A DNA stretch of 64,000 nt from Clostridia bacterium (GTDB lineage: Bacteria; Bacillota; Clostridia; Christensenellales; DTU072). A program made the position numbers and the translations under genes. Below, in pieces: positions 2,405-36,195 of this stretch; the first letter of the stretch is position 1; every line of letters starts with the position of its first letter. Location of the stretch: positions 69,351-133,350 of the forward strand of contig JAZRZM010000004.1 of assembly GCA_045601385.1 (NCBI GenBank). Reading direction: 5' to 3'. The notes beneath the pieces are model-generated. The model was not told where the DNA came from. It worked only from the letters and a program-made list of their open reading frames with translations, and did no database searches.

Positions 2405-3114
2405 TTTGTTGCCTCGATTGCTTCGCTGAGAGAAACCGCGCCCGAATAATAGGCTTTGCCGACGATAGCACCGTACACGCCGCTTTCTTTTAAGGCAATC
2501 AGGTCTTTCAGGTCGGATACGCCGCCCGAAGCGATAACGTTCATTTTTACGTTTTGCAGGAGGGTTTTATACAGATTGACATTCGGACCTTTCATTGCGC
2601 CGTCTTTACTTATATCGGTGCAAATGACGGTGGATACGCCCATTTGTTCGAGTTCTTTGCAGAACGAAACGGCTGTAAAATCCGAGTTTTCCGTCCAACC
2701 TTTTATGGCGACGAACCCGTCTTTTATATCTACGCCGACAGCAATTTTCTCTCCGTATAAACGCAGGGCTTCTTCTAAAAAAACGCGGTCGGTCACTGCC
2801 GCCGTACCGATGATAACGCGCGACGCACCCGCTTCTTCAATATACTTTTTTACGGTGTCGAGATTTCTCACGCCGCCGCCGACCTCGGTATATGGTTCGA
2901 CGGCGATCAGAGAACGGATTATGTCGAAGTTCGGGGTGTTGCCGTCCCTTGCTCCTTCCAGATCGACCACGTGCATTTGCTTTGCACCCTGTTTGAAAAA
3001 GTCGCGGGCGATTTCGACGGGGTTATCCGAATAAACGGTCATTTGTTTGTAGTCGCCTTTGTACAGGCGAACGGCTTTCTTGTCGAAAATGTCAATGGCG
3101 GGAAAGATTTTCAT
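2401..3114 (-). CDS. hisA: ProFAR isomerase (HisA)
   Basis: MKIFPAIDI..KKAVRL.KGDY...VVDLEGA: HisA family. I place the start at ATG 3114 (ATGA overlap with the hisH stop, GAGGAG RBS) rather than the track's TTG at 3129. Confidence 0.93.
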   Translation of the reverse strand: MKIFPAIDIFDKKAVRLYKGDYKQMTVYSDNPVEIARDFFKQGAKQMHVVDLEGARDGNTPNFDIIRSLIAVEPYTEVGGGVRNLDTVKKYIEEAGASRVIIGTAAVTDRVFLEEALRLYGEKIAVGVDIKDGFVAIKGWTENSDFTAVSFCKELEQMGVSTVICTDISKDGAMKGPNVNLYKTLLQNVKMNVIASGGVSDLKDLIALKESGVYGAIVGKAYYSGAVSLSEAIEATK

Positions 3115-3725
3115 AGTGTCTCCTCGCAAAATGCTTTCAGTATTTTCAAACCCGTTTCACCGCTTTTTTCGGGGTGAAACTGGCAGCCGTAAATGTTTCC
3201 GCAGGCGACGGCGGCGGTGATTTCCGCGCCGTATTCGGTGGACGCGACAAGACTGTCCGAGCAATTTTTGGCATAATAAGAATGCACAAAATAGACGTGT
3301 TCTCCCTCTTTCACATAGCGGAAGAGAGGATTTTCGCGGACAAAGTGCAGACTGTTCCAGCCCATGTGCGGCACTTTCAGTTCGTCGGGTATGTCGCTTT
3401 TTATCGGGCAGATTTCGCCGCGCAGCAGCCCGAGTCCGTCGCATACGCCGTATTCATGACTTTTTTCAAAAAGAAGTTGCATACCCAAACAAATCCCGAG
3501 AAGCGGTTTGCCTGCTTTTGCAAGGGCTTTGACGGTTTCGTCCAAACCGGTTGAACGCAATTTTGCCATCGCGTCGGCAAAAGCGCCTACGCCCGGCAAA
3601 ACGATTTTGTCTGCCTGCGAGAGTATTTTCGGATCCGCAGTTACGACGACTTCTTGCCCAAGCGTTGCGAATGAACTTTTCAGCGAAAACAGATTTCCGA
3701 CTCCGTAATCAACGATGGCTATCAT
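3111..3725 (-). CDS. hisH: Imidazole glycerol phosphate synthase, glutamine amidotransferase subunit
   Basis: MIAIVDYGVGNLFS...LPGVGAF...GICLGMQLL...HSY...QFHPEKS: class I GATase triad context typical of HisH. Confidence 0.96.
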   Translation of the reverse strand: MIAIVDYGVGNLFSLKSSFATLGQEVVVTADPKILSQADKIVLPGVGAFADAMAKLRSTGLDETVKALAKAGKPLLGICLGMQLLFEKSHEYGVCDGLGLLRGEICPIKSDIPDELKVPHMGWNSLHFVRENPLFRYVKEGEHVYFVHSYYAKNCSDSLVASTEYGAEITAAVACGNIYGCQFHPEKSGETGLKILKAFCEETL

Positions 3726-3728
3726 TTT

Positions 3729-4316
3729 TTATAAAACTCCTTTCGTAGACGGAATCTCGGCGGCAAATTTTTCGTCGATGGAGACGGCTTGTCTCAAAGC
3801 GCGTCCCGCCGCCTTAAAAACGCCCTCGATAATATGGTGCGTGTTTTTGCCGGTAAGCAGTCTCAAATGCAGTGCGCACTGCGCCTTGCGGATGAAGCCG
3901 AGCCAAAATTCTTCGACCAATTCGGTGTCGAAATCCCCCACTTTTTCGGTCGGCAGGTTTACGGAAAAATCGAGAAAAGCACGCCCCGAAAAATCGACCG
4001 AGGCGAGGACGAGCGTTTCGTCCATCGGCAGAAATATGTCTCCGTATCGCCGTATGCCTTTTTTGTCGCCGAGCGCTTCAAAAAAAGCCTCTCCGAGAGC
4101 GATCCCTATATCTTCGGTCGTGTGATGATAGTCTACGTCGGTGTCGCCGACGCACTTGACGGCAAGGTCAAAACGTCCGTGCGAGGCAAAAAGCGTCAGC
4201 ATGTGATTGAGGAAGCCGCACCCGGTGTCGACGTCGCTTTTCCCCGTTCCGTCCGGGCAAAACGAAAGGGCGATGTCCGTTTCGGCGGTTTTTCTTATAA
4301 TCGTACTTTCTCTCAT
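3729..4316 (-). CDS. hisB: Imidazoleglycerol-phosphate dehydratase (monofunctional)
   Basis: RKT.ETDI...GTG..D..TG.GFLNHML..F..HG.FDL...GD..VD.HHT.ED.GI.LG: IGPD motifs. At 195 aa it carries no fused phosphatase domain. Confidence 0.95.
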   Translation of the reverse strand: MRESTIIRKTAETDIALSFCPDGTGKSDVDTGCGFLNHMLTLFASHGRFDLAVKCVGDTDVDYHHTTEDIGIALGEAFFEALGDKKGIRRYGDIFLPMDETLVLASVDFSGRAFLDFSVNLPTEKVGDFDTELVEEFWLGFIRKAQCALHLRLLTGKNTHHIIEGVFKAAGRALRQAVSIDEKFAAEIPSTKGVL

Positions 4317-5365
4317 AGCAGTTTTTCCACCTTTTCCAAAAAGATTTTCATTTCGTCTTCACTGCCGATTGTTACGCGGTTATAGTCGCGTATTTTTTCT
4401 TTTGAAAAGTGGCGGACAAGTACGCCTTCGTTTTTCAACGCAAGGTACAGTTCTTCTCCGCCGATTTTTTCGTGCTTGATAAAAAGGAAATTGGCTTTCG
4501 AGTCGGTCACGCAAAAACCCATAGCGACAAGCGCCGAACGGACGTATTCCCGTACGCGTATAATTTCGGCGTTGTTCTTTCGGAAATACTCTTCGTCGCA
4601 AAGGGCTCCCACGCCGGCTGCCGCCGTCATACGGTTGACGTTGTACGGGTTCGTCGAATACTTGATTCTGATAAGATCGGCGATTATTTCTTCGCTCCCG
4701 ACGCCGACGCCCAGCCTTGCTCCGGCAAGAGAACGGGACTTGGAAAATGTCTGCGTAACGAGCAAATTGTCATATTTTTCGAGGAGCCGAATCGCGCTTT
4801 CCGCGCCGAAATCGACGTATGCTTCATCAACGACGATAACATTGTTTGGGTTGCTTTGAACGATCGTTTCGATATCCGAAAGAGACAAAGCGATTCCTGT
4901 CGGTGCATTCGGGTTAGCGATAAAAATCGTTTTATTTATGCTTTTATAATCGTTTATATCGATCGAAAAATCGTCTTTCAGCGGAATTTCCGTATACGGA
5001 ATGCGGTTGAGCCGTGCAAAAACGGGATAAAAACCGTAGGTAATATCGGGGAATACGGCGGGCGATTTTTCGTCGCAAAAAGCCATAAACGAAAAGTTCA
5101 GAATTTCGTCCGAACCGTTGGTGAAGAGAAGGTTGTTTTTGTTCACGCCGTATTTTGAGGCGGCGACGGCGACAAGGTCGCGGCACTCGGGATCGGAATA
5201 AAGATTCAGATCGCCCGCCGCTTCGCGCGCAAGTCTCTGCGCGTACGGGGACGGCGGAAAGGGCGATTCGTTTGTGTTGAGTTTGATATATTTACGTTCT
5301 TTCGGTTGTTCGCCGGGGACGTACGGATCGAGGAATGAAAACTTTGGACTGAAAAATTTACTCAT
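4313..5365 (-). CDS. hisC: Histidinol-phosphate aminotransferase
   Basis: Class II aminotransferase pattern (LNTNESP.PPSP, TFSKS.SLAGARLG). The start is set at ATG 5365 (MSKFF), which overlaps the hisD stop as ATGAGTAA. The track's upstream extension lies inside hisD. Confidence 0.92.
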   Translation of the reverse strand: MSKFFSPKFSFLDPYVPGEQPKERKYIKLNTNESPFPPSPYAQRLAREAAGDLNLYSDPECRDLVAVAASKYGVNKNNLLFTNGSDEILNFSFMAFCDEKSPAVFPDITYGFYPVFARLNRIPYTEIPLKDDFSIDINDYKSINKTIFIANPNAPTGIALSLSDIETIVQSNPNNVIVVDEAYVDFGAESAIRLLEKYDNLLVTQTFSKSRSLAGARLGVGVGSEEIIADLIRIKYSTNPYNVNRMTAAAGVGALCDEEYFRKNNAEIIRVREYVRSALVAMGFCVTDSKANFLFIKHEKIGGEELYLALKNEGVLVRHFSKEKIRDYNRVTIGSEDEMKIFLEKVEKLL

Positions 5366-6638
5366 TGTCGTCCTCCAAGCGGACCAACGCGCTTTTTGCG
5401 TGCGCGCCCAAGCCTTCTTTTTCGGCAAACAGCGCTACGCTTTGGGCGACCTTTTTGATTGCCGTTTCGTCATAATAAATGTATTGTGTTTTTTTGATAA
5501 AGTCGTCCACCGAAAGAGGACTGGAAAACTTTGCCGTTCCGCTTGTCGGTAAGGTGTGATTCGTTCCGGCAAGATAGTCGCCGAGGGCTTCGGGACAGTT
5601 TTTGCCCAAGAACACCGATCCGGCATTCAAAATCCGCGGCAAATATTTTTTCGGATCGTCCGTCATGATTTCCAGATGTTCGGGCGCAATCTCGTTGGCG
5701 ATGTCGATGACTTCGTCGAGATTTTGCGCGACGATTATTTTTCCGTTTCCGTCGATAGACGCGCGCGCGATATCCTTTCTGACCAGGAGCGGAATTTGCT
5801 TTTCGAGTTCGGCCTGTACCTTTTCGGCAAGTTCGGGACTGTCGGTGACGAGCACGGCGCTTGCCATTCTGTCGTGTTCGGCTTGCGACAAAAGATCGGC
5901 GGCAATGTGCCTCGGGTTGTTGTTCTTGTCGGCGATAATCATGATTTCGCTCGGCCCGGCGATCATGTCGATCGAGACTTTTCCGAAAACCTGACGCTTC
6001 GCCTCGGCGACAAAGGCGTTGCCCGGTCCGACGATTTTATCGACTTTTCCCACGCTTTCGGTGCCGTACGTCAAAGCGGCGACGGCTTGCGCACCGCCCA
6101 TTTTATAAATCTTGTTTACCCCGGCAAGTTGTGCCGCGACAAGAACGTTCGGATTGATTTTGCCTTCCCGATTCGGGGGCGTGGCGATGACGATTTCGTG
6201 ACAGCCGGCTATCTTTGCCGGAATCGCGTTCATAAGAACCGTCGACGGATACGCCGCCGTTCCGCCGGGGACGTAGAGCGCGACTTTGGCGATCGGGGTT
6301 ATTTTTTGCCCGAGTAGGGTACCCGAACCGCTTATTTCAAAACCGCTTCGCGCTTGTTTCGAGTGGAATTCGGTTATGTTTTTCGCCGCTGTTTTTAAGA
6401 CGGAGACAAACTTTTCGTCTACGAGCGCCCGCGCTTCGGCAAGTTCGTCCCCGCTGACGATCACGGATGTCAGGTCGGCGTGATCGAACCTCTTTGCATA
6501 GTCGAAAAGGGCTTCGTCGCCGCGTTTTATTACGTCGTCGATGATGTCGCACACGGCGTCTTCCACCGTGCAGGTCGTTTCGGCACGGGCAAAAATCTCT
6601 TCTTTCGGTACCGATTTGCTGTTCAGTATTCTGATCAT
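5358..6638 (-). CDS. hisD: Histidinol dehydrogenase
   Basis: 426 aa with the ...YVPGGTAAYPSTVLM..IPAK.AG...GPGN.FV..AK...IDM.AGPSE...QAEHD... hallmarks. It has an ATGA overlap with the hisZG stop. Confidence 0.96.
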   Translation of the reverse strand: MIRILNSKSVPKEEIFARAETTCTVEDAVCDIIDDVIKRGDEALFDYAKRFDHADLTSVIVSGDELAEARALVDEKFVSVLKTAAKNITEFHSKQARSGFEISGSGTLLGQKITPIAKVALYVPGGTAAYPSTVLMNAIPAKIAGCHEIVIATPPNREGKINPNVLVAAQLAGVNKIYKMGGAQAVAALTYGTESVGKVDKIVGPGNAFVAEAKRQVFGKVSIDMIAGPSEIMIIADKNNNPRHIAADLLSQAEHDRMASAVLVTDSPELAEKVQAELEKQIPLLVRKDIARASIDGNGKIIVAQNLDEVIDIANEIAPEHLEIMTDDPKKYLPRILNAGSVFLGKNCPEALGDYLAGTNHTLPTSGTAKFSSPLSVDDFIKKTQYIYYDETAIKKVAQSVALFAEKEGLGAHAKSALVRLEDDNE

Positions 6639-30240: not shown

Positions 30241-30283
30241 AAAAAAAGACTGTCGTCATATTGGCGACAGTCTTTTTATTTTC
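30241..30283. terminator. Bidirectional hairpin terminator between convergent hsp20 and the coiled-coil gene
   Basis: 10-bp stem AAGACTGTCG (30246-30255) / CGACAGTCTT (30265-30274), flanked by an A-run upstream and a T-run downstream. Confidence 0.65.
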
Positions 30284-30316: not shown

Positions 30317-33300
30317 TTATGCCCCGAATACAGGCGATACGTTGTTTTTGTCGGCGTATTCGATGATTTTCGCAAACAGCGTCATATCCTGCGGTTTCGG
30401 CGCGTTGATATGAACGATGCGCGAATAGGAAGGACAGCCGAGAGCGTCGAGAACGGTGTTTTCGGCGGCGGCGGCGCAGACAGTCAGCAGGCTGAGTATA
30501 TCGTTGTTCGGAACGGAAACTTCCGTTTCGAGTCCATCGCCGTTGTCTTGGAAGAGAGCAAGGCGGTTGCCGACGGGTTTGACCGAATAGGTGCGGTCGA
30601 AGCGCGACATTTCGTGCGTAATAAGGCTGGCGTACAAATGCGCGATATCCTTTTTCTGACAAGCGGATACGATATTGTATTTAACGATAGCCACATCCAA
30701 TACTTTCTGAATGGCTTTCTTCTTTTCTTTTGCCATATCGGCGAGGTTTTGTTGATTGCAAAGGGCGATCAGATCTTCCGTCCGTTCCGCTATCAGAGCG
30801 CGCGCGTCGTCCCAAGCGGCTTGATTTTCGGCAAGTTTGCGTTGAATTGCCTCGTTCTCGGCGATTAAGCGGTCGTATTCTTCGCATTTTGCGGCGTACT
30901 TGGTAATGTCGAGTTCGTGCTGAACGGTGTCGTTTAAGATATCGTCTTCGTCTTCCGCGCTGAGGACGTCTTTTTTCAGATCGCGGATCAGTTCTCTCGT
31001 CGGCGTTTCGCCTTTGAAAGGACTGAGTTGTTGCAACATACCGAGGACGTCGTTATTATGGTCGATTTGTTCTTTTAGCGCGGTCGTTTCGGAAATCATT
31101 TTGTTCAGTTCGATACGCTTCGATTCCAATAAACGGGCGGTTGCGGCGACGGATTCGACCGCTTTTTGTTTCGCTTGTTCTTCTTCGCGGATCTGATCGA
31201 GGATCATAACGAGTTGTTTGCCCGAGTACATAACGCAAAGTTGCGCCAGGGTATATTGGTTGCCGTCTTCTTCATAGAGGTAATCCCGTCTTTGCAGATC
31301 GGCGAGTTCTTTTCTGACTTCGGCAAGTTCTGCGTTCAGGTCGGCTTGTTTTGCCCAAAGATCTTTGAGTTCGGAGACGATGATGTCTTCGGTCTGCTCG
31401 GTTTCGTTGAGGATGCCGAACCATTCGGCGGGCGTTTTGCCGCCCATGGCGGGCGCGATTTTTTCCAGCGTGCTTTCGTGCTTCTTCGTCAAGTCGGCGA
31501 TTTCGGAAAGGACGGCGTTTTCTTTTTCGAGCGTTTCCGTGGACATGACCGTGATGATGTCGCCGAGTTTCTTTGCGTTGGAACCGGTGACGACTTCTTC
31601 CGAAGAGTAGCCGGTCATATCGGCGAGGTTCTCGGCAAACACATTGATGTCGTGTTGCAATTCGTCCAAAAGTCTCGACAGCGAGTCGTGATCGGTCGCG
31701 CCGGCTTCGGCGTACAGATTATTCAGAAGAGCGGTCTTGGCAAGTTTGGTTTCTTCCAGGCTCTTGCTGTAAGATTTTCCGTCGTCGATACGCGTTTGGA
31801 GTACGCCCATACGGGTATAGATCGTCTTTAATTTTTCTTGATATTCGGCGAGGATCGCTTTTACTTCCATTAGCGGAGCCGATTCGGCTTCGATTTGCGT
31901 CTGAATATCGTTGAACGCTTCGGTCGTGTCGAATTTTTCGGTTACGACGGCGTCGCAAATGGGACATTTGTTACCGTATTCGAGACGAGAGATGTCGTCG
32001 AGGTGATAGAGTTGCGCGCGAAGAGCCAAAATGGCTTTTTCCTTTTCGCTAACCTGTTCCTGCGCTTTTTCGGTGTATTGCAGGAGCGTCTCTTTGGCGC
32101 GTTCGAGCGCAACGAGTTTTTCTTCGTTTTCGCGGACGGATTCGCGGTTTTCTTCGATTTTTTTGTCAATGGCTTCCAGTTCCTGCAAGATGCCCGCGCA
32201 TACGATCTGATTACGATACAGATCCTGACGGCGGTGGATCAAAGCGTTATACTGTTCGCGACGGGCGGTCAAAGAACTGTCTCCGTCGGAAAAGGCTTCG
32301 TGCTTCGACTTCGCCATGGTGTACTTGTCGATGTTTTCGGCGCGGAGCGCGTTCAGGTCGGCGGTGGTCTTCTCATTCGCGTAGACGAGCGCGTTGAGCG
32401 TTTCCGTCATATTGTAGTCTTCTTGTAACATAGCGTCGGTGACGCCGTTGTCGCGAACCGATTTTTTGAAAGCGGAAGCAAAATGCACCCCTTCGAAGTC
32501 CTTTTTCTTGCTCTCGATTTCTTTTTCGAGGTCCGCTATTTGTTGCGAAAGCAGTTGTTCGCGTTCTTGAAGCAGATTGATCTTTGCGACGACTTCGGAA
32601 ACGGAGCGTTCGATTTCCGTCATCAGGACCGTGTTTTTGCCGGCGACGCCGTTATCCTGCGCTTTTTCGGCAAGGACGGTATAGAGCGCCTTGATTTTAT
32701 TCAGGCACGCATGGTATTCGTTTTGCAGATTGACCAAATGCCGTTCGCCGATTTCCAATTCTTTTTTACGGCGATCGATTTCTTCGCTGTTGGCGGCGAC
32801 TGCGTCTTCAAAAGTCTTCGTTTCGGCAATCAGTTCGCCCGCTCTTTCCCAAAAAGCGATTTTGGCTTTGGCGTCGCGGCTCTTCCAGACTTTTTGTTCC
32901 AGTTCGCGGTCTGTTTCGCGTTGACGAATGGCGTTGTCGAGACGATTTTTGTTGTCGTCGAAATCGCGGATGTTGCGGACGTTATTTTTGCCGATTTGGA
33001 TTTCGGCGGCAAGGTCGTCGGCTTTTTCCTGCAAAGCCTTTATCTCGTCGCGTACCTCTTTGATACGGTCGTCGATATCGTCGGGCGTTTCTTTTTGCAG
33101 ATTTTCAAAAACGGAAACGGAGGTTTCGTACGCGCTGATTTCTTTGGCGTGAATGGCGGCGGTCGAGGCTTTGTCGGCTTCCGTCACGGAAAGTTTGTGG
33201 CACACCTTGTCGAAGTGGGCGAGCGCGTCGGAAGCTATCTCGCGGTAAGAATCGGGAAAAGCGGCGAGCGAAAGCCACTCTTCGGTCGAAAGGTGAAAAA

Positions 33301-33664
33301 CCGATTCCAATTCGCGGCCGATGGCGGCGGAGCCCGTTATCGTTTCGTCATCTTTCTTCAACGTGAGCGAATGTGTGGCGAACTTCCGCGTCAGGACGTA
33401 GTTATGTTCGTCCGAACCGAACGTAAAAGCGATCTCGCCCGACGGGAAGGTGTCCGCGCCGTCGAAAAGCCAGGTAAAGAGCTTTTTGATGCGCTTGACA
33501 TCCGTTTCGGTATAAGCCGCTCTTTCGGGATCGAACGAAAAACCGTCGTCCTGTCTTTTCGAGAAAAGGACGTATTCGATCGAAGAATCGAGCGTGCCGA
33601 CAATGGCGTCCGTCGTTTTTTCGCAAATGCCGTTGACTGTTAACTTTTTAGGTATCATATCCAA
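30317..33664 (-). CDS. Rad50/SbcC-like long coiled-coil protein with a central CxxC hook; ATPase motifs not recognisable
   Basis: 1115 aa. Long heptad-like E/K/L/A/Q-rich stretches. CPIC is at residues 567-570 (nt 31955-31966), almost exactly mid-protein. There is no GxxxxGK[ST] in the N-terminal globular part and no clear LSGG / hhhhDE at the C-terminus. Confidence 0.6.
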   Translation of the reverse strand: MDMIPKKLTVNGICEKTTDAIVGTLDSSIEYVLFSKRQDDGFSFDPERAAYTETDVKRIKKLFTWLFDGADTFPSGEIAFTFGSDEHNYVLTRKFATHSLTLKKDDETITGSAAIGRELESVFHLSTEEWLSLAAFPDSYREIASDALAHFDKVCHKLSVTEADKASTAAIHAKEISAYETSVSVFENLQKETPDDIDDRIKEVRDEIKALQEKADDLAAEIQIGKNNVRNIRDFDDNKNRLDNAIRQRETDRELEQKVWKSRDAKAKIAFWERAGELIAETKTFEDAVAANSEEIDRRKKELEIGERHLVNLQNEYHACLNKIKALYTVLAEKAQDNGVAGKNTVLMTEIERSVSEVVAKINLLQEREQLLSQQIADLEKEIESKKKDFEGVHFASAFKKSVRDNGVTDAMLQEDYNMTETLNALVYANEKTTADLNALRAENIDKYTMAKSKHEAFSDGDSSLTARREQYNALIHRRQDLYRNQIVCAGILQELEAIDKKIEENRESVRENEEKLVALERAKETLLQYTEKAQEQVSEKEKAILALRAQLYHLDDISRLEYGNKCPICDAVVTEKFDTTEAFNDIQTQIEAESAPLMEVKAILAEYQEKLKTIYTRMGVLQTRIDDGKSYSKSLEETKLAKTALLNNLYAEAGATDHDSLSRLLDELQHDINVFAENLADMTGYSSEEVVTGSNAKKLGDIITVMSTETLEKENAVLSEIADLTKKHESTLEKIAPAMGGKTPAEWFGILNETEQTEDIIVSELKDLWAKQADLNAELAEVRKELADLQRRDYLYEEDGNQYTLAQLCVMYSGKQLVMILDQIREEEQAKQKAVESVAATARLLESKRIELNKMISETTALKEQIDHNNDVLGMLQQLSPFKGETPTRELIRDLKKDVLSAEDEDDILNDTVQHELDITKYAAKCEEYDRLIAENEAIQRKLAENQAAWDDARALIAERTEDLIALCNQQNLADMAKEKKKAIQKVLDVAIVKYNIVSACQKKDIAHLYASLITHEMSRFDRTYSVKPVGNRLALFQDNGDGLETEVSVPNNDILSLLTVCAAAAENTVLDALGCPSYSRIVHINAPKPQDMTLFAKIIEYADKNNVSPVFGA

Positions 33665-33867
33665 AGCCTCCGTTTGTTTGCCTTTGCCGTTTTTTGCCGA
33701 ATTTTTTTTCGGAAACAGTGGCGAAACGGCAAATTGTGTGGTATACTCATAGTCACACGTGATCGGAAATGCGGGTTCGCATTGCCCAATACCGTATAGT
33801 AATATATATTATACACAATATTCAGCATCTTTGCAAGATGTAGACAACAATTTTTCGGAGAAATTTT

Positions 33868-35289
33868 ATGGGATTTGTCAAAATCAGCGGCGAATATATG
33901 CGTCGGGCGTTCACGTCGGTGGATAACGTCTTCATAAGAGACTATCTTCCCGAAGCGAACGCGGAAGACGTGAGGATCTATCTTTACGGGCTTTCAAACG
34001 CGGAAAGCGAGGATTGCTCGGTCGAATCCGTCGCCGAAAAACTGCAACTGACGCGCCAAAGGGTACTGGACGGCTTTGCGTATTGGGCGCAAAAAGGGCT
34101 TGTGTCCCTTTCTGCCGTTGAGCCCGTTACGGTTACTTATTTGCCTGTTCGGGCGCCCGAACCGGCGATTATTAAGGTTCATGCCGAAAAATACAAGACG
34201 TTTGCCGAAGAGGCGGCGCGCATTTATCCCGAACGTGTATTGATGCCGAACGATCTCAATACGTATATAGAATTGATGCACACCGAAAAAATTGAAGTCA
34301 ACGCGATGCTGCTTGTCATGCAGTATTGCAAAGATCTCGGCGGAGGCAAAACGGGGACAAAATATGTCTGCGCCGTGGCAAAAGCGTGGGCGCAAGCGGG
34401 CTTTGCGACCGAAAAACAGGTTGCCGACCACATTGCCGAATTGGAAAATAACAACGAGCAAATCCGCGTTCTGTTCGAGACGTTGGGACTGAAACGCGCC
34501 GCGTGCGTCGACGACCGACAGATGTATTATCGTTGGGTGGGCGACGGCTTTTCGCAAGACGCCATTCTGACGGCGGCAAGATCGCGAAAGAAAAAAGGCG
34601 GCATGGAAAAACTCGACCTTTATATGGAAGAACTGAAAAAGGCGAACGCCATGACCGCCGCGGAGATAGCCTGCTATACCGAAAACAAGGAAAAAATCCA
34701 TAATCTCGCTATCGAGATATGCAAGAATCTCGGCGTATACTATTCCAATACCGAAAACCTGACCGAGGTGTATATTTTGCCGTGGATCGGGCGCGGTTTT
34801 GAGCCGGAAGCGTTGCTGCGGCTGTCAAAATATTGCTTTTTGCGAAACGTGCACACTTTCGACGTCATGTGTCAGATGGTGGAAAAAATCGCGGCGATCG
34901 GGCTTTTTACCGAAAGCGAAATCACGTCTTACGTCGATCGGCAAATCGCTTTGGACGAAACGGTGCGTAAGGTGTACGACGTGAGCGGATATGTCGGAGC
35001 GATCACCAATCGGGATCGGGACGCGTATAAAACGTGGATCGAGTGGGGGTACGATGAGGAGACGATTCTTGCCGTCGCGGAGCATTTTGCCGGGACGACT
35101 TTCCCCATGCAGTCTATCGGAAGGACTATGGGCACTTTGCGTGCAAATAAGATTTTTTCCAAGGAAGCAGCCGTTTCGTTTTTGAAGAGAGACGGACAAA
35201 AACAGGGTGTGAAAGAAGAATTCCAAAGACATCAATATTCGGAAGAACGCCTGAAAAATGCGCTTATCAATTTTGACAACTGGGAGTAA
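33868..35289 (+). CDS. DnaD-domain replication initiation / membrane attachment protein (Firmicute DnaB/DnaD type)
   Basis: N-terminal winged-helix-like region (FIRDYLP.A....V.IYLYGL), then DnaD-like repeats (..YI.....W...G..T...V..HI.E). It lies immediately upstream of a DnaI-like loader, as in the Firmicute dnaB-dnaI arrangement. Confidence 0.65.
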   Translation: MGFVKISGEYMRRAFTSVDNVFIRDYLPEANAEDVRIYLYGLSNAESEDCSVESVAEKLQLTRQRVLDGFAYWAQKGLVSLSAVEPVTVTYLPVRAPEPAIIKVHAEKYKTFAEEAARIYPERVLMPNDLNTYIELMHTEKIEVNAMLLVMQYCKDLGGGKTGTKYVCAVAKAWAQAGFATEKQVADHIAELENNNEQIRVLFETLGLKRAACVDDRQMYYRWVGDGFSQDAILTAARSRKKKGGMEKLDLYMEELKKANAMTAAEIACYTENKEKIHNLAIEICKNLGVYYSNTENLTEVYILPWIGRGFEPEALLRLSKYCFLRNVHTFDVMCQMVEKIAAIGLFTESEITSYVDRQIALDETVRKVYDVSGYVGAITNRDRDAYKTWIEWGYDEETILAVAEHFAGTTFPMQSIGRTMGTLRANKIFSKEAAVSFLKRDGQKQGVKEEFQRHQYSEERLKNALINFDNWE

Positions 35290-35292
35290 AAT

Positions 35293-36195
35293 ATGAACGT
35301 ACGGGAAAAGGCGTATGCCTATATAAAAAATCGGGCAAGGACTCAAAAAGAAGAGCGAGCTGCCGCGCTGGGAAAACTGCGCGAGGACGAAAAATTCGAC
35401 GATATGTACCGTGCGCTCAATTCCCTTCGGTGGGACGTCGCGCGAAAAGACGGCGAAGAAAAAGAAAAAGCGAAAGCGCAATGCGAGCGTGTAAAAAAAG
35501 AGTTGGTCGACTACTTAATCTCGAAAGGGTATTCCGAAGACTTGCTTTCGGATGCCGAAATCTGCAATAAATGCCACGACACCGGCGTTTGCGACGGTAA
35601 AATGTGCGAGTGTGCGGAAAAAGTGAGAATCGACATAACGCGGCAGAAAAACCCTCTTTTACGCGGCCTTGCGGATTCGCATGAAAAAATCGATTTTTCC
35701 TTTTATCGCGGCTGTGAAAAAAATTACAAAATATACGCCGATTTTATCGAAAAAAAATTCGTCCAAGGCGACTTGAATTATGTTGTTTTGTCGGGAAAAC
35801 CGGGGACGGCGAAGAGTTATCTTGCAAGTGTTTTTACAAACGAAATGCTTGTTTCGGGTAATGACGTTCGTGCGGTAAACGCCCTTGAAATGAACAAAAT
35901 CTTTCTTGCCTATCACTGCGCTTTTTTGGAAAATAAACAAGAAATATGGGACGAATTGGTCGAGCCGGACGTGCTGTTTATTGACGATCTCGGCGTCGAA
36001 CCGCTGCTGAATAACGTGACTTTGCCGTGCTTGTACGCTCTTCTGGTCGAGCGCATGGAAAAGAAAACCATTATTACGACCAACCTCGGCGTGGTCGAGA
36101 CCGAAAAAAAATACGATCAACGGATTGTCAGTCGCCTGCTGGATAAAAGACGGGGTGCAATGCTTCCGATCGAGGGGGACGATTTCCGTTTTTAA
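35293..36195 (+). CDS. DnaI/DnaC-like helicase loader ATPase
   Basis: N-terminal Cys cluster (CNKCHDTGVCDGKMCEC). The Walker A-like motif is SGKPGTAKS (Ala where Gly is usual), Walker B is VLFIDDLG, and the tail is IstB/DnaC-like. Confidence 0.7.
   Translation: MNVREKAYAYIKNRARTQKEERAAALGKLREDEKFDDMYRALNSLRWDVARKDGEEKEKAKAQCERVKKELVDYLISKGYSEDLLSDAEICNKCHDTGVCDGKMCECAEKVRIDITRQKNPLLRGLADSHEKIDFSFYRGCEKNYKIYADFIEKKFVQGDLNYVVLSGKPGTAKSYLASVFTNEMLVSGNDVRAVNALEMNKIFLAYHCAFLENKQEIWDELVEPDVLFIDDLGVEPLLNNVTLPCLYALLVERMEKKTIITTNLGVVETEKKYDQRIVSRLLDKRRGAMLPIEGDDFRF

What the first reader, a model, noticed from the sequence alone, without database searches (positions are those of the whole stretch)
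30317..33664. Rad50/SbcC-like zinc-hook coiled-coil protein with apparently degenerate ATPase heads and no nuclease partner
The 1115-aa product has globular ends, very long heptad-like coiled-coil arms, and a CxxC (CPIC, nt 31955-31966) at residues 567-570, close to the exact midpoint. That is the hallmark geometry of the Rad50/SbcC zinc hook. However, the N-terminal roughly 100 aa lack any GxxxxGK[ST] Walker A. The C-terminal region shows ...NDILSLLTVCAAAAE... and ...SRIVHINAP... where the LSGG signature and hhhhDE Walker B would be expected. No SbcD/Mre11-type phosphoesterase is adjacent. The gene sits divergently from dnaD/dnaI-like replication-restart genes. Inference: this is either a structural (non-ATPase) SMC-like tether or a very divergent ATPase.
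Basis: partly seen in the sequence, partly recalled or inferred. Interest (0 to 1): 0.6.

Follow-up and report, generated by a model that had tools for sequence, protein, structure and literature searches.

The report
ATPase-dead SbcC zinc-hook rod protein
This gene encodes a descendant of the DNA-repair protein SbcC/Rad50 that keeps the head fold, long coiled-coil arms and zinc hook but has lost every ATP-using motif and its nuclease partner; nearly every genome of one family of uncultured gut Clostridia keeps it under selection, so rod and hook appear to do something useful without the motor.

Summary

- **Gene.** It lies on the minus strand at 30317-33658 and encodes 1113 aa. The start is an ATG with a GGAGG ribosome-binding site, two codons inside the TTG ORF.
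- **Hook.** CPIC sits at the apex of a predicted antiparallel coiled coil. CPxC is kept in 56 of 57 full-length relatives.
- **Heads.** Both lobes are homologous to SbcC heads (hhalign E 6e-22 and 4e-12; cross-lobe controls negative). Walker A, the LSGGE signature and Walker B are absent in every member tested by pattern. The profile alignment also shows no Q-loop or H-loop.
- **Nuclease partner.** The genome has no SbcD or canonical SbcC.
- **Selection and spread.** The gene is not decaying: dN/dS is about 0.1, heads included. It is single-copy in at least 75 of 81 genomes of one Christensenellales-type family and essentially absent from the rest of the order.
- **Origin (new here).** In four sister families, canonical sbcD-sbcC sits divergent from dnaB-dnaI, exactly where this gene sits. 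A fifth family carries a half-degenerate pair. So this gene is the positional orthologue of sbcC, and the dnaB-dnaI adjacency is inherited.
- **Charge.** The N-lobe has become acidic (net -9, against +4 in canonical SbcC). This argues against head-mediated DNA binding.

The most likely role is an ATP-independent, zinc-hook-dimerised scaffold, possibly at replication forks. That role is inferred, not shown.

The parts
30317..33658 (-). Coding sequence of the ATPase-dead SbcC-like protein (1113 aa plus stop).
   Evidence: ORF list and translation. ATG with GGAGG at the same spacing in 19 orthologues. dN/dS 0.10-0.12.
33667..33671 (-). Ribosome-binding site GGAGG, 8 nt upstream of the ATG.
   Evidence: Sequence. 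The same motif is present in all orthologues.
33808..33836 (-). Promoter TTGCAA-17-TATAAT (10/12 match, TG-extended -10). It gives a 5' leader of about 150 nt.
   Evidence: Scan. The same TTGCAA-N17-T(G)TATAAT lies 145-281 nt upstream of the ATG in 19/19 family loci.
33089..33658 (-). N-terminal head lobe (residues 1-190). It is homologous to the SbcC N-lobe, but the P-loop is deleted or replaced and the Q-loop is lost. G67, R91 and F93 are conserved. Net charge is about -10.
   Evidence: hhalign Prob 99.4%, E 5.8e-22, 184 columns. Secondary structure of the model. No Walker A. Charge.
33551..33616 (-). Species-specific 22-aa insertion (residues 15-36) in the N-lobe, predicted disordered.
   Evidence: Gap in all other orthologues. 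pLDDT 37-48.
31988..33085 (-). N-terminal coiled-coil arm (residues 192-557), with breaks at 335-343, 389-395 and 456-463.
   Evidence: AlphaFold2 model, pLDDT about 75-90. Foldseek matches to SMC, MukB, Smc5/6 and Rad50 arms.
31925..31987 (-). Hook loop (residues 558-578), consensus 'EYG..CPVC......K'. CPIC is at 31955-31966. Only two Cys ligands per chain are conserved, and the loop has no further Cys or His. A tetrahedral Zn site therefore needs two chains.
   Evidence: C565, P566, C568, G562 and K575 are conserved at 93-98% across 57 sequences. The loop lies between helices in both models.
31679..32221 (-). Hook-proximal coiled coil (residues 480-660). This is the stretch with the most family-wide conserved positions: K500, I501, G618, Y630, L634, L660.
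   Evidence: Column conservation. Fragment model with pLDDT 94 and pTM 0.73 forms a helical hairpin.
30656..31924 (-). C-terminal coiled-coil arm (residues 579-1001), with breaks at 652-657, 738-743, 789-803 (small beta-hairpin, conserved 'DGK.Y.Y..LC') and 878-900.
   Evidence: Model. Alignment.
30320..30655 (-). C-terminal head lobe (residues 1002-1113). It is homologous to the SbcC C-lobe. 'NDILSLLTVCAAAAE' replaces LSGGE plus its helix, 'SRIVHINAP' replaces the Walker B strand, and there is no H-loop His.
   Evidence: hhalign Prob 97.6%, E 3.7e-12, 164 columns; cross-lobe controls negative.
30243..30277 (.). Perfect 16-bp hairpin flanked by A and T runs. It is a likely bidirectional terminator shared with the convergent hsp20, so the gene is monocistronic here.
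   Evidence: Terminator scan.
33868..36195 (+). Divergent dnaB-like (DnaB_2 domain, 473 aa) and dnaI/dnaC-like (300 aa) helicase-loader genes. They are the constant neighbours of this gene family and, in sister families, of canonical sbcD-sbcC.
   Evidence: Pfam. Synteny in every family locus with enough flank. Sister families.

Best explanation
**Identity (shown).** The gene is the positional and sequence descendant of sbcC in one family of Christensenellales-type Clostridia.

- In this lineage the nuclease gene sbcD was lost.
- SbcC lost Walker A, the LSGGE signature and Walker B. The profile alignment also shows no Q-loop or H-loop.
- It kept the bipartite head fold, an antiparallel coiled coil lengthened to about 1110 aa, and the CPxC zinc hook.
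- The whole protein, including the motif-less heads, is under purifying selection. It is a near-universal single-copy gene of that family.

**Mechanism (inferred).**

- Two chains share one Zn through their two-cysteine hooks and form a long, strongly acidic rod-shaped dimer.
- The dimer cannot bind or hydrolyse ATP, so it cannot run the ATP-driven head engagement and DNA clamping cycle of SbcCD.
- The N-lobe has changed from basic to acidic, so the heads probably bind proteins rather than DNA.
- The protein therefore acts as a nucleotide-independent scaffold or tether. The hook-proximal coiled coil, its best conserved part, is likely the dimer (rod) interface or a partner site.

**Site of action (guess).** The replication fork or helicase-loading machinery is the most plausible place. 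Canonical SbcC works at forks, and the gene has stayed divergently paired with dnaB-dnaI. This is the least certain step.

**Confidence by part.** About 0.9 for the identity, about 0.6 for a non-enzymatic hook-dimerised scaffold, and about 0.3 for a replication-linked role.
For: - **Head homology.** Deep profiles (57 family members against 28 canonical SbcC) give N-lobe Prob 99.4%, E 5.8e-22, and C-lobe Prob 97.6%, E 3.7e-12. Cross-lobe controls are negative. A shallower version agrees for the N-lobe.
- **Global profile search.** A search of 1.84 billion representatives finds 93 family clusters at E<=1e-10. Below the family, the hits are nearly all canonical SbcC with Walker A, CPxC, LSGGE and DEG. 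A 57-sequence HMM hits canonical SbcC down to E 5e-58.
- **Motif loss.** No Walker A, LSGGE or hhhDE[GP] at the positions where SbcC has them in any of 56 full-length members. Three stray pattern matches lie elsewhere: LSGGE at residue 85 of P0005, IFDEG at 11 of P0012, LILDEP at 889 of P0061. 55 of those 56, and the window's protein, have a central CP[VILF]C.
- **Structure.** The AlphaFold2 model has pLDDT 79 and an SbcC-like order of strands and helices in both lobes. Its best Foldseek hits are Smc2/4, MukB, Smc5/6, JetC and Rad50, including Rad50 head crystals 3av0, 3auy and 5dny. The hook fragment has pLDDT 94 and pTM 0.73 and forms a helical hairpin with CPIC in the loop.
- **Selection.** dN/dS is 0.10-0.12 overall and 0.08-0.19 in the heads, for pairs with dS about 0.9.
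- **Distribution.** 75/81 genomes of the GTDB family have it, in 15/17 genera. Three of the 'misses' do carry it. In a 201-genome sample of the order, only the own family matched, apart from one marginal 6.7e-11 hit to the f23 type.
- **Positional orthology.** In sister families, canonical sbcD-sbcC lies divergent from and 100-320 bp away from dnaB-dnaI: f29 6/6, f40 7/7, f8 3/4 and f21 3/4 of genomes with SbcD. Four were checked at sequence level. Family f23 has a degenerate SbcD ('SDWNIGK', 'SGNVFG') plus a Walker-A-less SbcC at the same place.
- **Absence of SbcCD.** The own genome has none. SbcD occurs in only 3 of 25 genomes of the genus.
- **Charge.** N-lobe net charge is -9.3 +/- 3.2 in the family against +3.9 +/- 5.7 in canonical SbcC.
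- **Literature.** B. subtilis SbcC localises with the replication machinery (PMC1533848), and this depends on the SSB C-terminus (PMC3000357).
Against:
- Zn binding and dimerisation are inferred from the motif only.
- The Pfam Rad50 zinc-hook model does not hit, and Foldseek on the hook fragment does not discriminate. The best hit has E 1.4e-3 to Smc5/6 arms; the human Rad50 hook 5gox has E 0.026 and TM about 0.5.
- The dnaB-dnaI adjacency is ancestral, shared with canonical sbcDC. It does not by itself show a functional tie for the dead protein.
- Net charge of a 150-residue segment is a crude proxy for a DNA-binding surface.
- The protein diverges about twice as fast as SMC in the same genomes: 20-28% against 40-58% identity. 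This also fits a loosely constrained or conflict-driven role.
Confidence: 0.6

Rival explanations
1. It is an ATP-independent DNA tether. The protein still binds DNA directly with its heads and bridges two DNA molecules or ends through the hook. It would keep the structural half of Rad50/SbcC function without processing.
For: It descends from a DNA-bridging protein and keeps the hook and arms. Its position beside replication genes is conserved.
Against: In Rad50/SbcC, DNA is clamped by the ATP-engaged head dimer, which cannot form here. The N-lobe is acidic across the family, -9 against +4 in canonical SbcC. The whole protein has net charge -63.
Confidence: 0.15
2. It is a conflict or defence-related sensor. 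In this reading, a fast-evolving SMC-like protein works in phage or plasmid restriction, as Lamassu, Wadjet or RloC-type Rad50 relatives do.
For: It diverges quickly: 20-28% identity within a genus where SMC is 40-58% and DnaB-like is 47-65% identical. Foldseek lists JetC and Lamassu LmuB among its structural neighbours.
Against: It is a single-copy, near-universal core gene at a fixed chromosomal site among housekeeping genes. There is no effector domain or partner gene and no mobile-element context. dN/dS of about 0.1 shows no sign of diversifying selection. All known SMC-type defence proteins need their ATPase.
Confidence: 0.05
3. It is a very divergent but still active ATPase that binds nucleotide with non-canonical residues.
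For: The head fold is retained and under purifying selection.
Against: The P-loop segment is shortened and lacks both the glycine-rich loop and the Lys-Ser/Thr in all 57 sequences. The Walker B acidic pair, the signature, the Q-loop and the H-loop are all missing at the aligned positions. No alternative conserved acidic or basic cluster appears in the heads.
Confidence: 0.04
4. It is a decaying relic (pseudogene in progress) of sbcC with no function.
For: All catalytic motifs and the partner gene are lost.
Against: An intact reading frame of about 1100 codons is present in at least 75 genomes across 15 genera. dN/dS is about 0.1 in every region. The RBS and promoter are conserved. The hook is nearly invariant.
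Confidence: 0.01
5. It is an unrelated coiled-coil protein that acquired a CxxC by convergence and is not derived from SbcC.
For: Pfam, NCBIfam and PDB sequence searches with the single protein give only coiled-coil noise.
Against: Lobe-specific profile homology holds with negative cross controls. Canonical SbcC proteins are the next-best hits among 1.84 billion proteins. It occupies the same genomic slot as sbcDC in sister families, with a half-degenerate intermediate.
Confidence: 0.02

Closest known systems
SbcC / Rad50 (ATPase subunit of SbcCD / Mre11-Rad50; e.g. E. coli SbcC, B. subtilis SbcC/YirY, M. jannaschii Rad50 structures 3av0/3auy/5dny)
   Same: It has a bipartite N-lobe plus C-lobe head that is homologous at profile level. 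It has an antiparallel intramolecular coiled coil with a CPxC hook at the apex and only two Cys per chain. It occupies the same chromosomal slot (divergent from dnaB-dnaI) as canonical sbcD-sbcC in sister families.
   Different: Walker A, the signature and Walker B are absent, and no Q-loop or H-loop appears in the alignment. There is no SbcD/Mre11 partner in the genome. The N-lobe is acidic rather than basic. The arms are longer: about 1110 aa in total, against 870-900 aa in the neighbouring families' SbcC.
Half-degenerate SbcD-SbcC pair of a sister family (f23; proteins P0178 and P0100, annotated only as 'hypothetical protein, Clostridiales bacterium')
   Same: It is an SbcC-type hook protein without a functional Walker A. 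In some genomes it sits at the same place beside dnaB. The CPIC hook is kept.
   Different: It still has an SbcD-like partner, with catalytic DxH changed to DxN and GD changed to GN. It retains recognisable remnants of the signature and Walker B ('LGEGER', 'VLFIEGFEAFG'). It is 1256-1275 aa long. The family profile matches only its N-terminal 300 residues (E 6.5e-8).
SbcE/YhaN with SbcF/YhaO of Bacillus subtilis (PMC2811018)
   Same: It is a second SbcC-like SMC-type protein of Bacillota involved in DNA transactions.
   Different: According to that paper's abstract, SbcE has a unique central domain where SbcC has the hook, and it acts in double-strand-break repair and competence. From general knowledge, not tested here, it is an active ATPase encoded beside a phosphoesterase.
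RloC (Rad50-like zinc-hook ATPase fused to an anticodon nuclease; PMC3458546)
   Same: The Rad50-type coiled coil with a zinc hook is reused outside the Mre11-Rad50 complex.
   Different: RloC depends on its DNA-dependent ATPase and carries an effector nuclease domain. The protein here has neither.
SMC, MukB, JetC and RecN (other SMC-like proteins)
   Same: The overall architecture is head, long antiparallel coiled coil, then apex. These are the top Foldseek neighbours.
   Different: They dimerise by a hinge, or in RecN by a coiled-coil interface, rather than by a CxxC hook. All are active ATPases. The own genome separately encodes normal SMC, RecN and RecF.

Membership tests
SbcC/Rad50 ABC-type ATPases | Walker A P-loop GxxxxGK[ST] near residue 30-40 | tested here: not met
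   No match in the first 120 residues of the window protein or of 56 full-length relatives; canonical SbcC have it at residues 29-37. hhalign places a 4-5 residue gap and unrelated residues opposite 'GxtGsGKS'.
SbcC/Rad50 ABC-type ATPases | Signature LSGGE, Walker B hhhhDE(G), Q-loop and H-loop | tested here: not met
   The aligned positions read 'VPNNDILS', 'SRIVHINAP', 'AAFPDS' and 'VSPVFGA'. No LSGGE or hhhDE[GP] stands at the expected C-lobe positions in any family member. Pfam SbcC_Walker_B and AAA_23 do not hit this protein, but they do hit the neighbouring family's SbcC.
SbcC/Rad50 ABC-type ATPases | Bipartite head: N- and C-terminal lobes homologous to ABC lobes I and II | tested here: met
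   hhalign gives N-lobe E 5.8e-22 and C-lobe E 3.7e-12, with negative cross controls. Foldseek hits Rad50 head crystals 3av0_B, 3auy_B and 5dny_D with prob 1.00. The PDB profile hit to M. jannaschii Rad50 has E 0.006.
SbcC/Rad50 ABC-type ATPases | Long antiparallel coiled coil with a CxxC zinc hook at the apex | tested here: met
   The models show helices 192-557 and 579-1001 joined by a loop carrying CPIC. CPxC is 98% conserved. Zn coordination itself was not tested.
SbcC/Rad50 ABC-type ATPases | Partner nuclease SbcD/Mre11, normally encoded immediately upstream | tested here: not met
   No SbcD is adjacent or anywhere in the genome. It is absent from 22 of 25 genomes of the genus.
SbcC/Rad50 ABC-type ATPases | Orthology by descent (same locus as sbcC in relatives) | tested here: met
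   Canonical sbcD-sbcC lies divergent from dnaB-dnaI in 19 of 21 SbcD-bearing genomes of four sister families. A degenerate pair lies there in a fifth.
Rad50 zinc hook (Pfam PF04423) | Match to the Pfam hook model | tested here: not met
   No member of the 17-sequence alignment hits PF04423 at E<=0.1. The local motif G..CP[VIL]C resembles the canonical one.
Rad50 zinc hook (Pfam PF04423) | One Zn shared by two chains (Zn(Cys)4) | not testable with these tools
   Only two Cys are conserved, and the loop has no other Cys or His. That is compatible with an intermolecular site. No multimer prediction or metal analysis was available.
SMC proper | Globular hinge domain at the apex | tested here: not met
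   The apex is a 21-residue loop. The NCBIfam SMC hit scores 28 bits against a 567-bit cut-off and covers coiled coil only.

The most novel reading that the evidence does not exclude
After complete loss of its ATPase, its DNA-binding face and its nuclease, the Rad50/SbcC rod and zinc hook have an autonomous, selectable cellular function. In this reading the acidic heads have become protein-binding (or DNA-mimicking) modules that tether or regulate the Gram-positive helicase-loading and fork-restart machinery (DnaB-DnaI, SSB). The canonical, half-dead and fully dead loci of neighbouring families would then record stepwise how a molecular machine turns into a passive scaffold.
Probability: 0.25. 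Interest if true: 0.75.

Novelty: new variant of a known kind. Interest (0 to 1): 0.62.

Why it matters
What the long coiled coils and zinc hook of Rad50/SbcC do, apart from serving the ATPase, is a long-standing question. It is usually addressed with engineered hook or coiled-coil mutants. Here nature has made the reverse construct: hook, arms and head fold are kept under purifying selection for a whole bacterial family while the motor and nuclease are gone.

The protein can be expressed on its own. That makes the question directly testable through zinc-dependent dimerisation, rod geometry and a search for binding partners.

The locus series also gives a rare stepwise picture of pseudo-enzyme evolution at one fixed chromosomal position. 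The steps are an intact sbcDC, then a dead SbcD with a half-dead SbcC, then a lone motif-less SbcC.

It further flags an annotation problem. They escape Pfam and NCBIfam, and some weakly hit SMC/Rad50 models through coiled-coil composition only.

Tried and rejected
- **Single-sequence searches.** Pfam, NCBIfam and PDB-sequence searches gave only sub-threshold coiled-coil hits.
- **Word-indexed homologue search.** The full protein returned nothing because coiled-coil words swamped the candidates. I switched to whole-genome and exhaustive profile searches.
- **Locus search with the 17-sequence alignment.** It failed for lack of a conserved 7-10 residue block. A 7-sequence alignment worked.
- **First C-lobe comparison.** A shallow comparison with 5 SbcC sequences was not significant (E 0.09). 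Only the deeper profiles settled it.
- **Hidden nuclease partner.** TIGR00619, tblastn with two canonical SbcD sequences, and tblastn with the two degenerate SbcD (P0178 of L051 and that of G160) found nothing in the genome.
- **SOS (LexA/Cheo box).** There is no site better than chance: 63 matches against 74 expected, and only a 2-mismatch site in the leader.
- **DnaA boxes.** One 1-mismatch box overlaps the -10 of the promoter. Such boxes are frequent across the window, so nothing can be concluded.
- **Foldseek on the isolated hook fragment.** The fragment is a confident helical hairpin, but its matches are generic antiparallel coiled coils. Rad50 hooks appear only at E 0.03-0.09. The structure supports the geometry but not hook identity.
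- **RadC as a partner.** A RadC JAB gene follows directly only in one branch of the genus (L012, L015, L017) and not in this window or most loci. It was rejected as a general partner.
- **Literature.** The searches found no description of an ATPase-less SbcC/Rad50.

Full report
**1. The observation.**
The window holds one long ORF at 30317..33664 on the minus strand. All 19 complete orthologues start at the equivalent ATG with the same ribosome-binding site. The product is therefore 1113 aa.

CPIC lies at nt 31955-31966, which is residues 565-568 and 51% of the length. There is no G....GK[ST] in the N-terminal 120 residues.

Upstream and divergent lie a DnaB_2-domain protein (473 aa) and an IstB/DnaC-like DnaI-type protein. 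Downstream and convergent lies hsp20. A perfect 16-bp hairpin at 30243-30277 separates the gene from hsp20, and a TTGCAA-17-TATAAT promoter lies at 33836-33808. In this genome the gene is monocistronic.

**2. Single-sequence searches fail; relatives exist.**
Pfam, NCBIfam and PDB sequence searches gave only sub-threshold coiled-coil matches. The word-indexed protein search gave nothing.

Six-frame searches of related genomes found one orthologue per genome in 21 of 24 other genomes of the genus. Identity was only 20-28%. SMC from the same genomes is 40-58% identical and the neighbouring DnaB-like protein 47-65%.

In the 17-sequence alignment the invariant residues are:
- M1, L6, G67, G74, R91 and F93 in the N-terminal domain;
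- a cluster around the apex: K500, L518, Y528, G562, C565, P566, C568, K575, Y630 and L634.

**3. It is an SbcC derivative.**
A profile of the 17 sequences was run against 1.84 billion representative proteins. It found 93 clusters at E<=1e-10. Below the family, nearly all remaining hits were canonical SbcC/Rad50.

A pattern census shows a sharp boundary:
- The family hits, from the top of the list down to P0092 (E 8.5e-13), lack Walker A, LSGGE and hhhDE[GP] at the positions where SbcC has them. The full-length ones carry a central CP[VILF]C. One canonical SbcC, P0088 at E 1.4e-17, sits among them and has all the motifs.
- Most weaker hits have Walker A at residues 29-37, a central CxxC, LSGGE and hhhDEG.

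The lobes were then compared separately, using 57 family members against 28 canonical SbcC:
- N-lobe: Prob 99.4%, E 5.8e-22, 184 columns.
- C-lobe: Prob 97.6%, E 3.7e-12, 164 columns.
- The two cross comparisons (N against C) were negative (Prob 2.5% and 1.3%).

The alignment puts a short gap and unrelated residues opposite the P-loop. It puts 'VPNNDILSLLTVCAAAAE' opposite 'tLSGGEtflaSLslalals', 'SRIVHINAP' opposite 'sLFiDEGFgsLD', and 'VSPVFGA' opposite 'vgiITH'.

**4. Structure.**
The AlphaFold2 model from the 17-sequence alignment has mean pLDDT 79. Its parts are:
- an N-lobe of strands 2-11 and 36-41, helix 51-66 and strands 75-108;
- two arms, 192-557 and 579-1001, with matching breaks;
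- a 21-residue loop carrying CPIC;
- a C-lobe of strands 1024-1046, helix 1052-1072, strand 1080-1084, helix 1092-1104 and strand 1107-1112.

This is the SbcC/Rad50 order of elements. Foldseek against the PDB returned Smc2/Smc4, MukB, Smc5/6, JetC and C. thermophilum Rad50. It also returned the M. jannaschii Rad50 head crystals 3av0, 3auy and 5dny with probability 1.00, and two-helix SMC arm fragments.

A separate model of residues 470-670 has pLDDT 94 and pTM 0.73. It is a helical hairpin with the CPIC loop at its tip. Its Foldseek matches are generic antiparallel coiled coils. The human Rad50 hook 5gox appears at E 0.026 with TM 0.51-0.55. Structure therefore confirms the fold-back geometry but cannot by itself prove a zinc hook.

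The loop has only two conserved Cys and no other Cys or His. A tetrahedral Zn site would need two chains, as in Rad50.

**5. It is maintained, not decaying.**
Nei-Gojobori dN/dS for the two orthologue pairs with unsaturated dS (0.87 and 0.92) is 0.10 and 0.12 overall. In the motif-less head lobes it is 0.08-0.19.

The profile finds the gene in 75 of 81 genomes of the GTDB family, and in 46 of 49 high-quality ones, across 15 of 17 genera. It is always single-copy.
- Three of the six 'misses' carry a 1125-1131-aa Walker-less CPxC gene at the expected place. They are simply too divergent for the profile.
- A fourth ends at a contig edge.

In a 201-genome sample of the order, only the 8 genomes of the own family matched, apart from one marginal 6.7e-11 hit.

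Public records name the carriers only as uncultured Clostridia or Clostridiales MAGs from gut, rumen and digesters. One is called 'Christensenella sp. UBA1782'. No cluster member has a name other than 'hypothetical protein'.

**6. Origin at a fixed locus.**
Every family locus with enough flank has the dnaB-like gene divergently upstream, usually followed by dnaI-like. This holds even where DnaB-like identity falls to 35% and the downstream genes differ.

I then asked what occupies that slot elsewhere in the order. I compared the coordinates of SbcD and DnaB-like in genomes that have SbcD. In the four families below, canonical sbcD lies divergent from dnaB-like and 100-320 bp away:

| Family | Genomes with sbcD next to dnaB-like |
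|---|---|
| f29 | 6 of 6 |
| f40 | 7 of 7 |
| f8 | 3 of 4 |
| f21 | 3 of 4 |

These are among the families whose DnaB-like proteins most resemble the window's.

Four such loci were read. SbcD has intact DxH and GD motifs and passes the Pfam Metallophos threshold. The SbcC that follows is 873-899 aa with Walker A and Walker B.

A fifth family, f23, has at the same place in two genomes a 375-aa SbcD-like gene with 'SDWNIGK' and 'SGNVFG'. It falls below the Metallophos cut-off. The SbcC-like gene that follows has 'LLGEHDKGVG' in place of the P-loop.
- Its full-length relative P0100 (1256 aa) keeps remnants 'LGEGER' and 'VLFIEGFEAFG' and a CPIC hook.
- P0100 is preceded by a similar dead SbcD, P0178.

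The simplest reading is an ancestral dnaI-dnaB | sbcD-sbcC arrangement. In the window's family, sbcD was deleted and sbcC lost all its nucleotide motifs while its arms lengthened by about 200 residues.

Canonical SbcCD is absent from the window's genome. It is rare in the genus (3 of 25 genomes). Where it is present it lies elsewhere and resembles the family less, so it was probably re-acquired.

**7. What it probably does.**
Shown: descent from SbcC, loss of every ATPase motif and of the nuclease, retention of fold, arms and hook, and purifying selection.

Inferred:
- The protein cannot perform ATP-dependent head engagement.
- It dimerises through a shared Zn.
- It acts as a passive rod-like scaffold.

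One further observation bears on what the heads bind. The first 150 residues carry a net charge of -9.3 +/- 3.2 in the family, against +3.9 +/- 5.7 in canonical SbcC. The whole window protein has a net charge of -63. The lobe that contributes much of the DNA-binding surface in Rad50 (established knowledge) has thus turned acidic. This favours protein binding, or DNA mimicry, over direct DNA tethering.

Most family-wide conserved positions lie in the hook-proximal coiled coil (residues about 480-660). That points to either the rod interface of the dimer or a partner site.

For the site of action, two facts point to replication forks. B. subtilis SbcC co-localises with the replication machinery (PMC1533848) in an SSB-C-terminus-dependent way (PMC3000357). 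The gene also stays paired with the helicase-loader operon. Because that pairing predates the loss of activity, I rate a replication-linked role at only about 0.3.

**8. Rivals.**
- A cryptic ATPase is very unlikely, given physical loss of the P-loop in all members.
- A decaying pseudogene is excluded by selection and distribution.
- Convergence is excluded by lobe-specific homology and synteny.
- A defence role fits the fast divergence. It does not fit a fixed, universal, single-copy housekeeping locus with no effector and dN/dS of 0.1.
- A direct DNA tether remains possible (0.15), but the charge shift disfavours it.

**9. Regulation (side observations).**
The TTGCAA-N17-T(G)TATAAT promoter is conserved 145-281 nt upstream of the ATG in 19 of 19 loci. 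In the window its -10 overlaps a plus-strand -10-like hexamer 58 nt before the dnaB-like start. The two genes may therefore compete for RNA polymerase at back-to-back promoters. No LexA box or convincing DnaA box was found.

**10. Novelty and earlier notes.**
Literature searches found no description of an ATPase-less SbcC/Rad50. Earlier unchecked notes of this scan describe the same family in three other genomes and reach the same identification and the same dnaB-dnaI association. I reached these points independently before reading them, and tested them here.

- the positional-orthology series across sister families;
- the half-degenerate intermediate at the same locus;
- the acidic shift of the N-lobe.

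I class the finding as a new variant of a known kind, with interest about 0.6.

Noticed in passing
window 33728-33836 (intergenic region between the hook gene and dnaB-like): The hook-gene promoter TTGCAA-N17-T(G)TATAAT is conserved in 19/19 family loci. In the window its -10 (33808-33813, minus strand) overlaps a plus-strand TATATT (33805-33810) that would serve dnaB-like. A second element conserved by eye, (A)GTATAnCAcA (about 33728-33748, minus strand), reads as an extended -10 (TGnTATACT) towards dnaB on the other strand. This suggests overlapping divergent promoters or leaders.
   Followed up: partly
L075 (G031) 2722-5400 and L083 (G045) 2772-5393: The canonical SbcC proteins of two sister families (892 and 873 aa) have an intact Walker A, and that of G045 also LSGGE and Walker B, but no CxxC anywhere. 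They are hook-less yet apparently active SbcC, the mirror image of the protein studied here.
   Followed up: no
L051 882-5752; L082 2025-4418: This is a dead-SbcD plus half-dead-SbcC operon of a sister family. SbcD-like has DxH changed to DxN and GD changed to GN and falls below the Pfam Metallophos cut-off. SbcC-like (1256 aa) has 'LGEGER' and 'FIEGFEAFG' remnants and a CPIC hook. In L051 it lies upstream of ppnK-argR-recN rather than beside dnaB.
   Followed up: partly
G088:C16:64555-65328: An SbcD-type match lies inside a 1289-aa open frame. This may be a single-chain SbcD-SbcC fusion.
   Followed up: no
L012, L015 and L017, 4 nt downstream of the hook gene: In one branch of the genus, a RadC-like JAB-domain gene (Pfam RadC, E 7e-22) follows the hook gene directly on the same strand. 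This is not so in this window or in most other loci.
   Followed up: partly
window 33551-33616 (residues 15-36): A 22-residue insertion unique to this species lies in the N-lobe, at the place where canonical SbcC has strand 2 and the P-loop. It is predicted disordered (pLDDT below 50).
   Followed up: no
G007:C15:27877-31002 (L064): The orthologue in this genome has one in-frame TGA. This may be a sequencing error or a recent inactivation.
   Followed up: no
own genome C6:2173-3774 (outside the window): A 534-aa AAA_23/OLD-like ATPase ORF has a Walker A motif and a C-terminal Toprim-like region. It is probably a defence-type gene (OLD, Gabija or PARIS-like).
   Followed up: no
window 35293-36195: The DnaI/DnaC-like loader has an N-terminal cysteine cluster (CNKCHDTGVCDGKMCEC), consistent with the zinc-binding N-domain of DnaI.
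   Followed up: no
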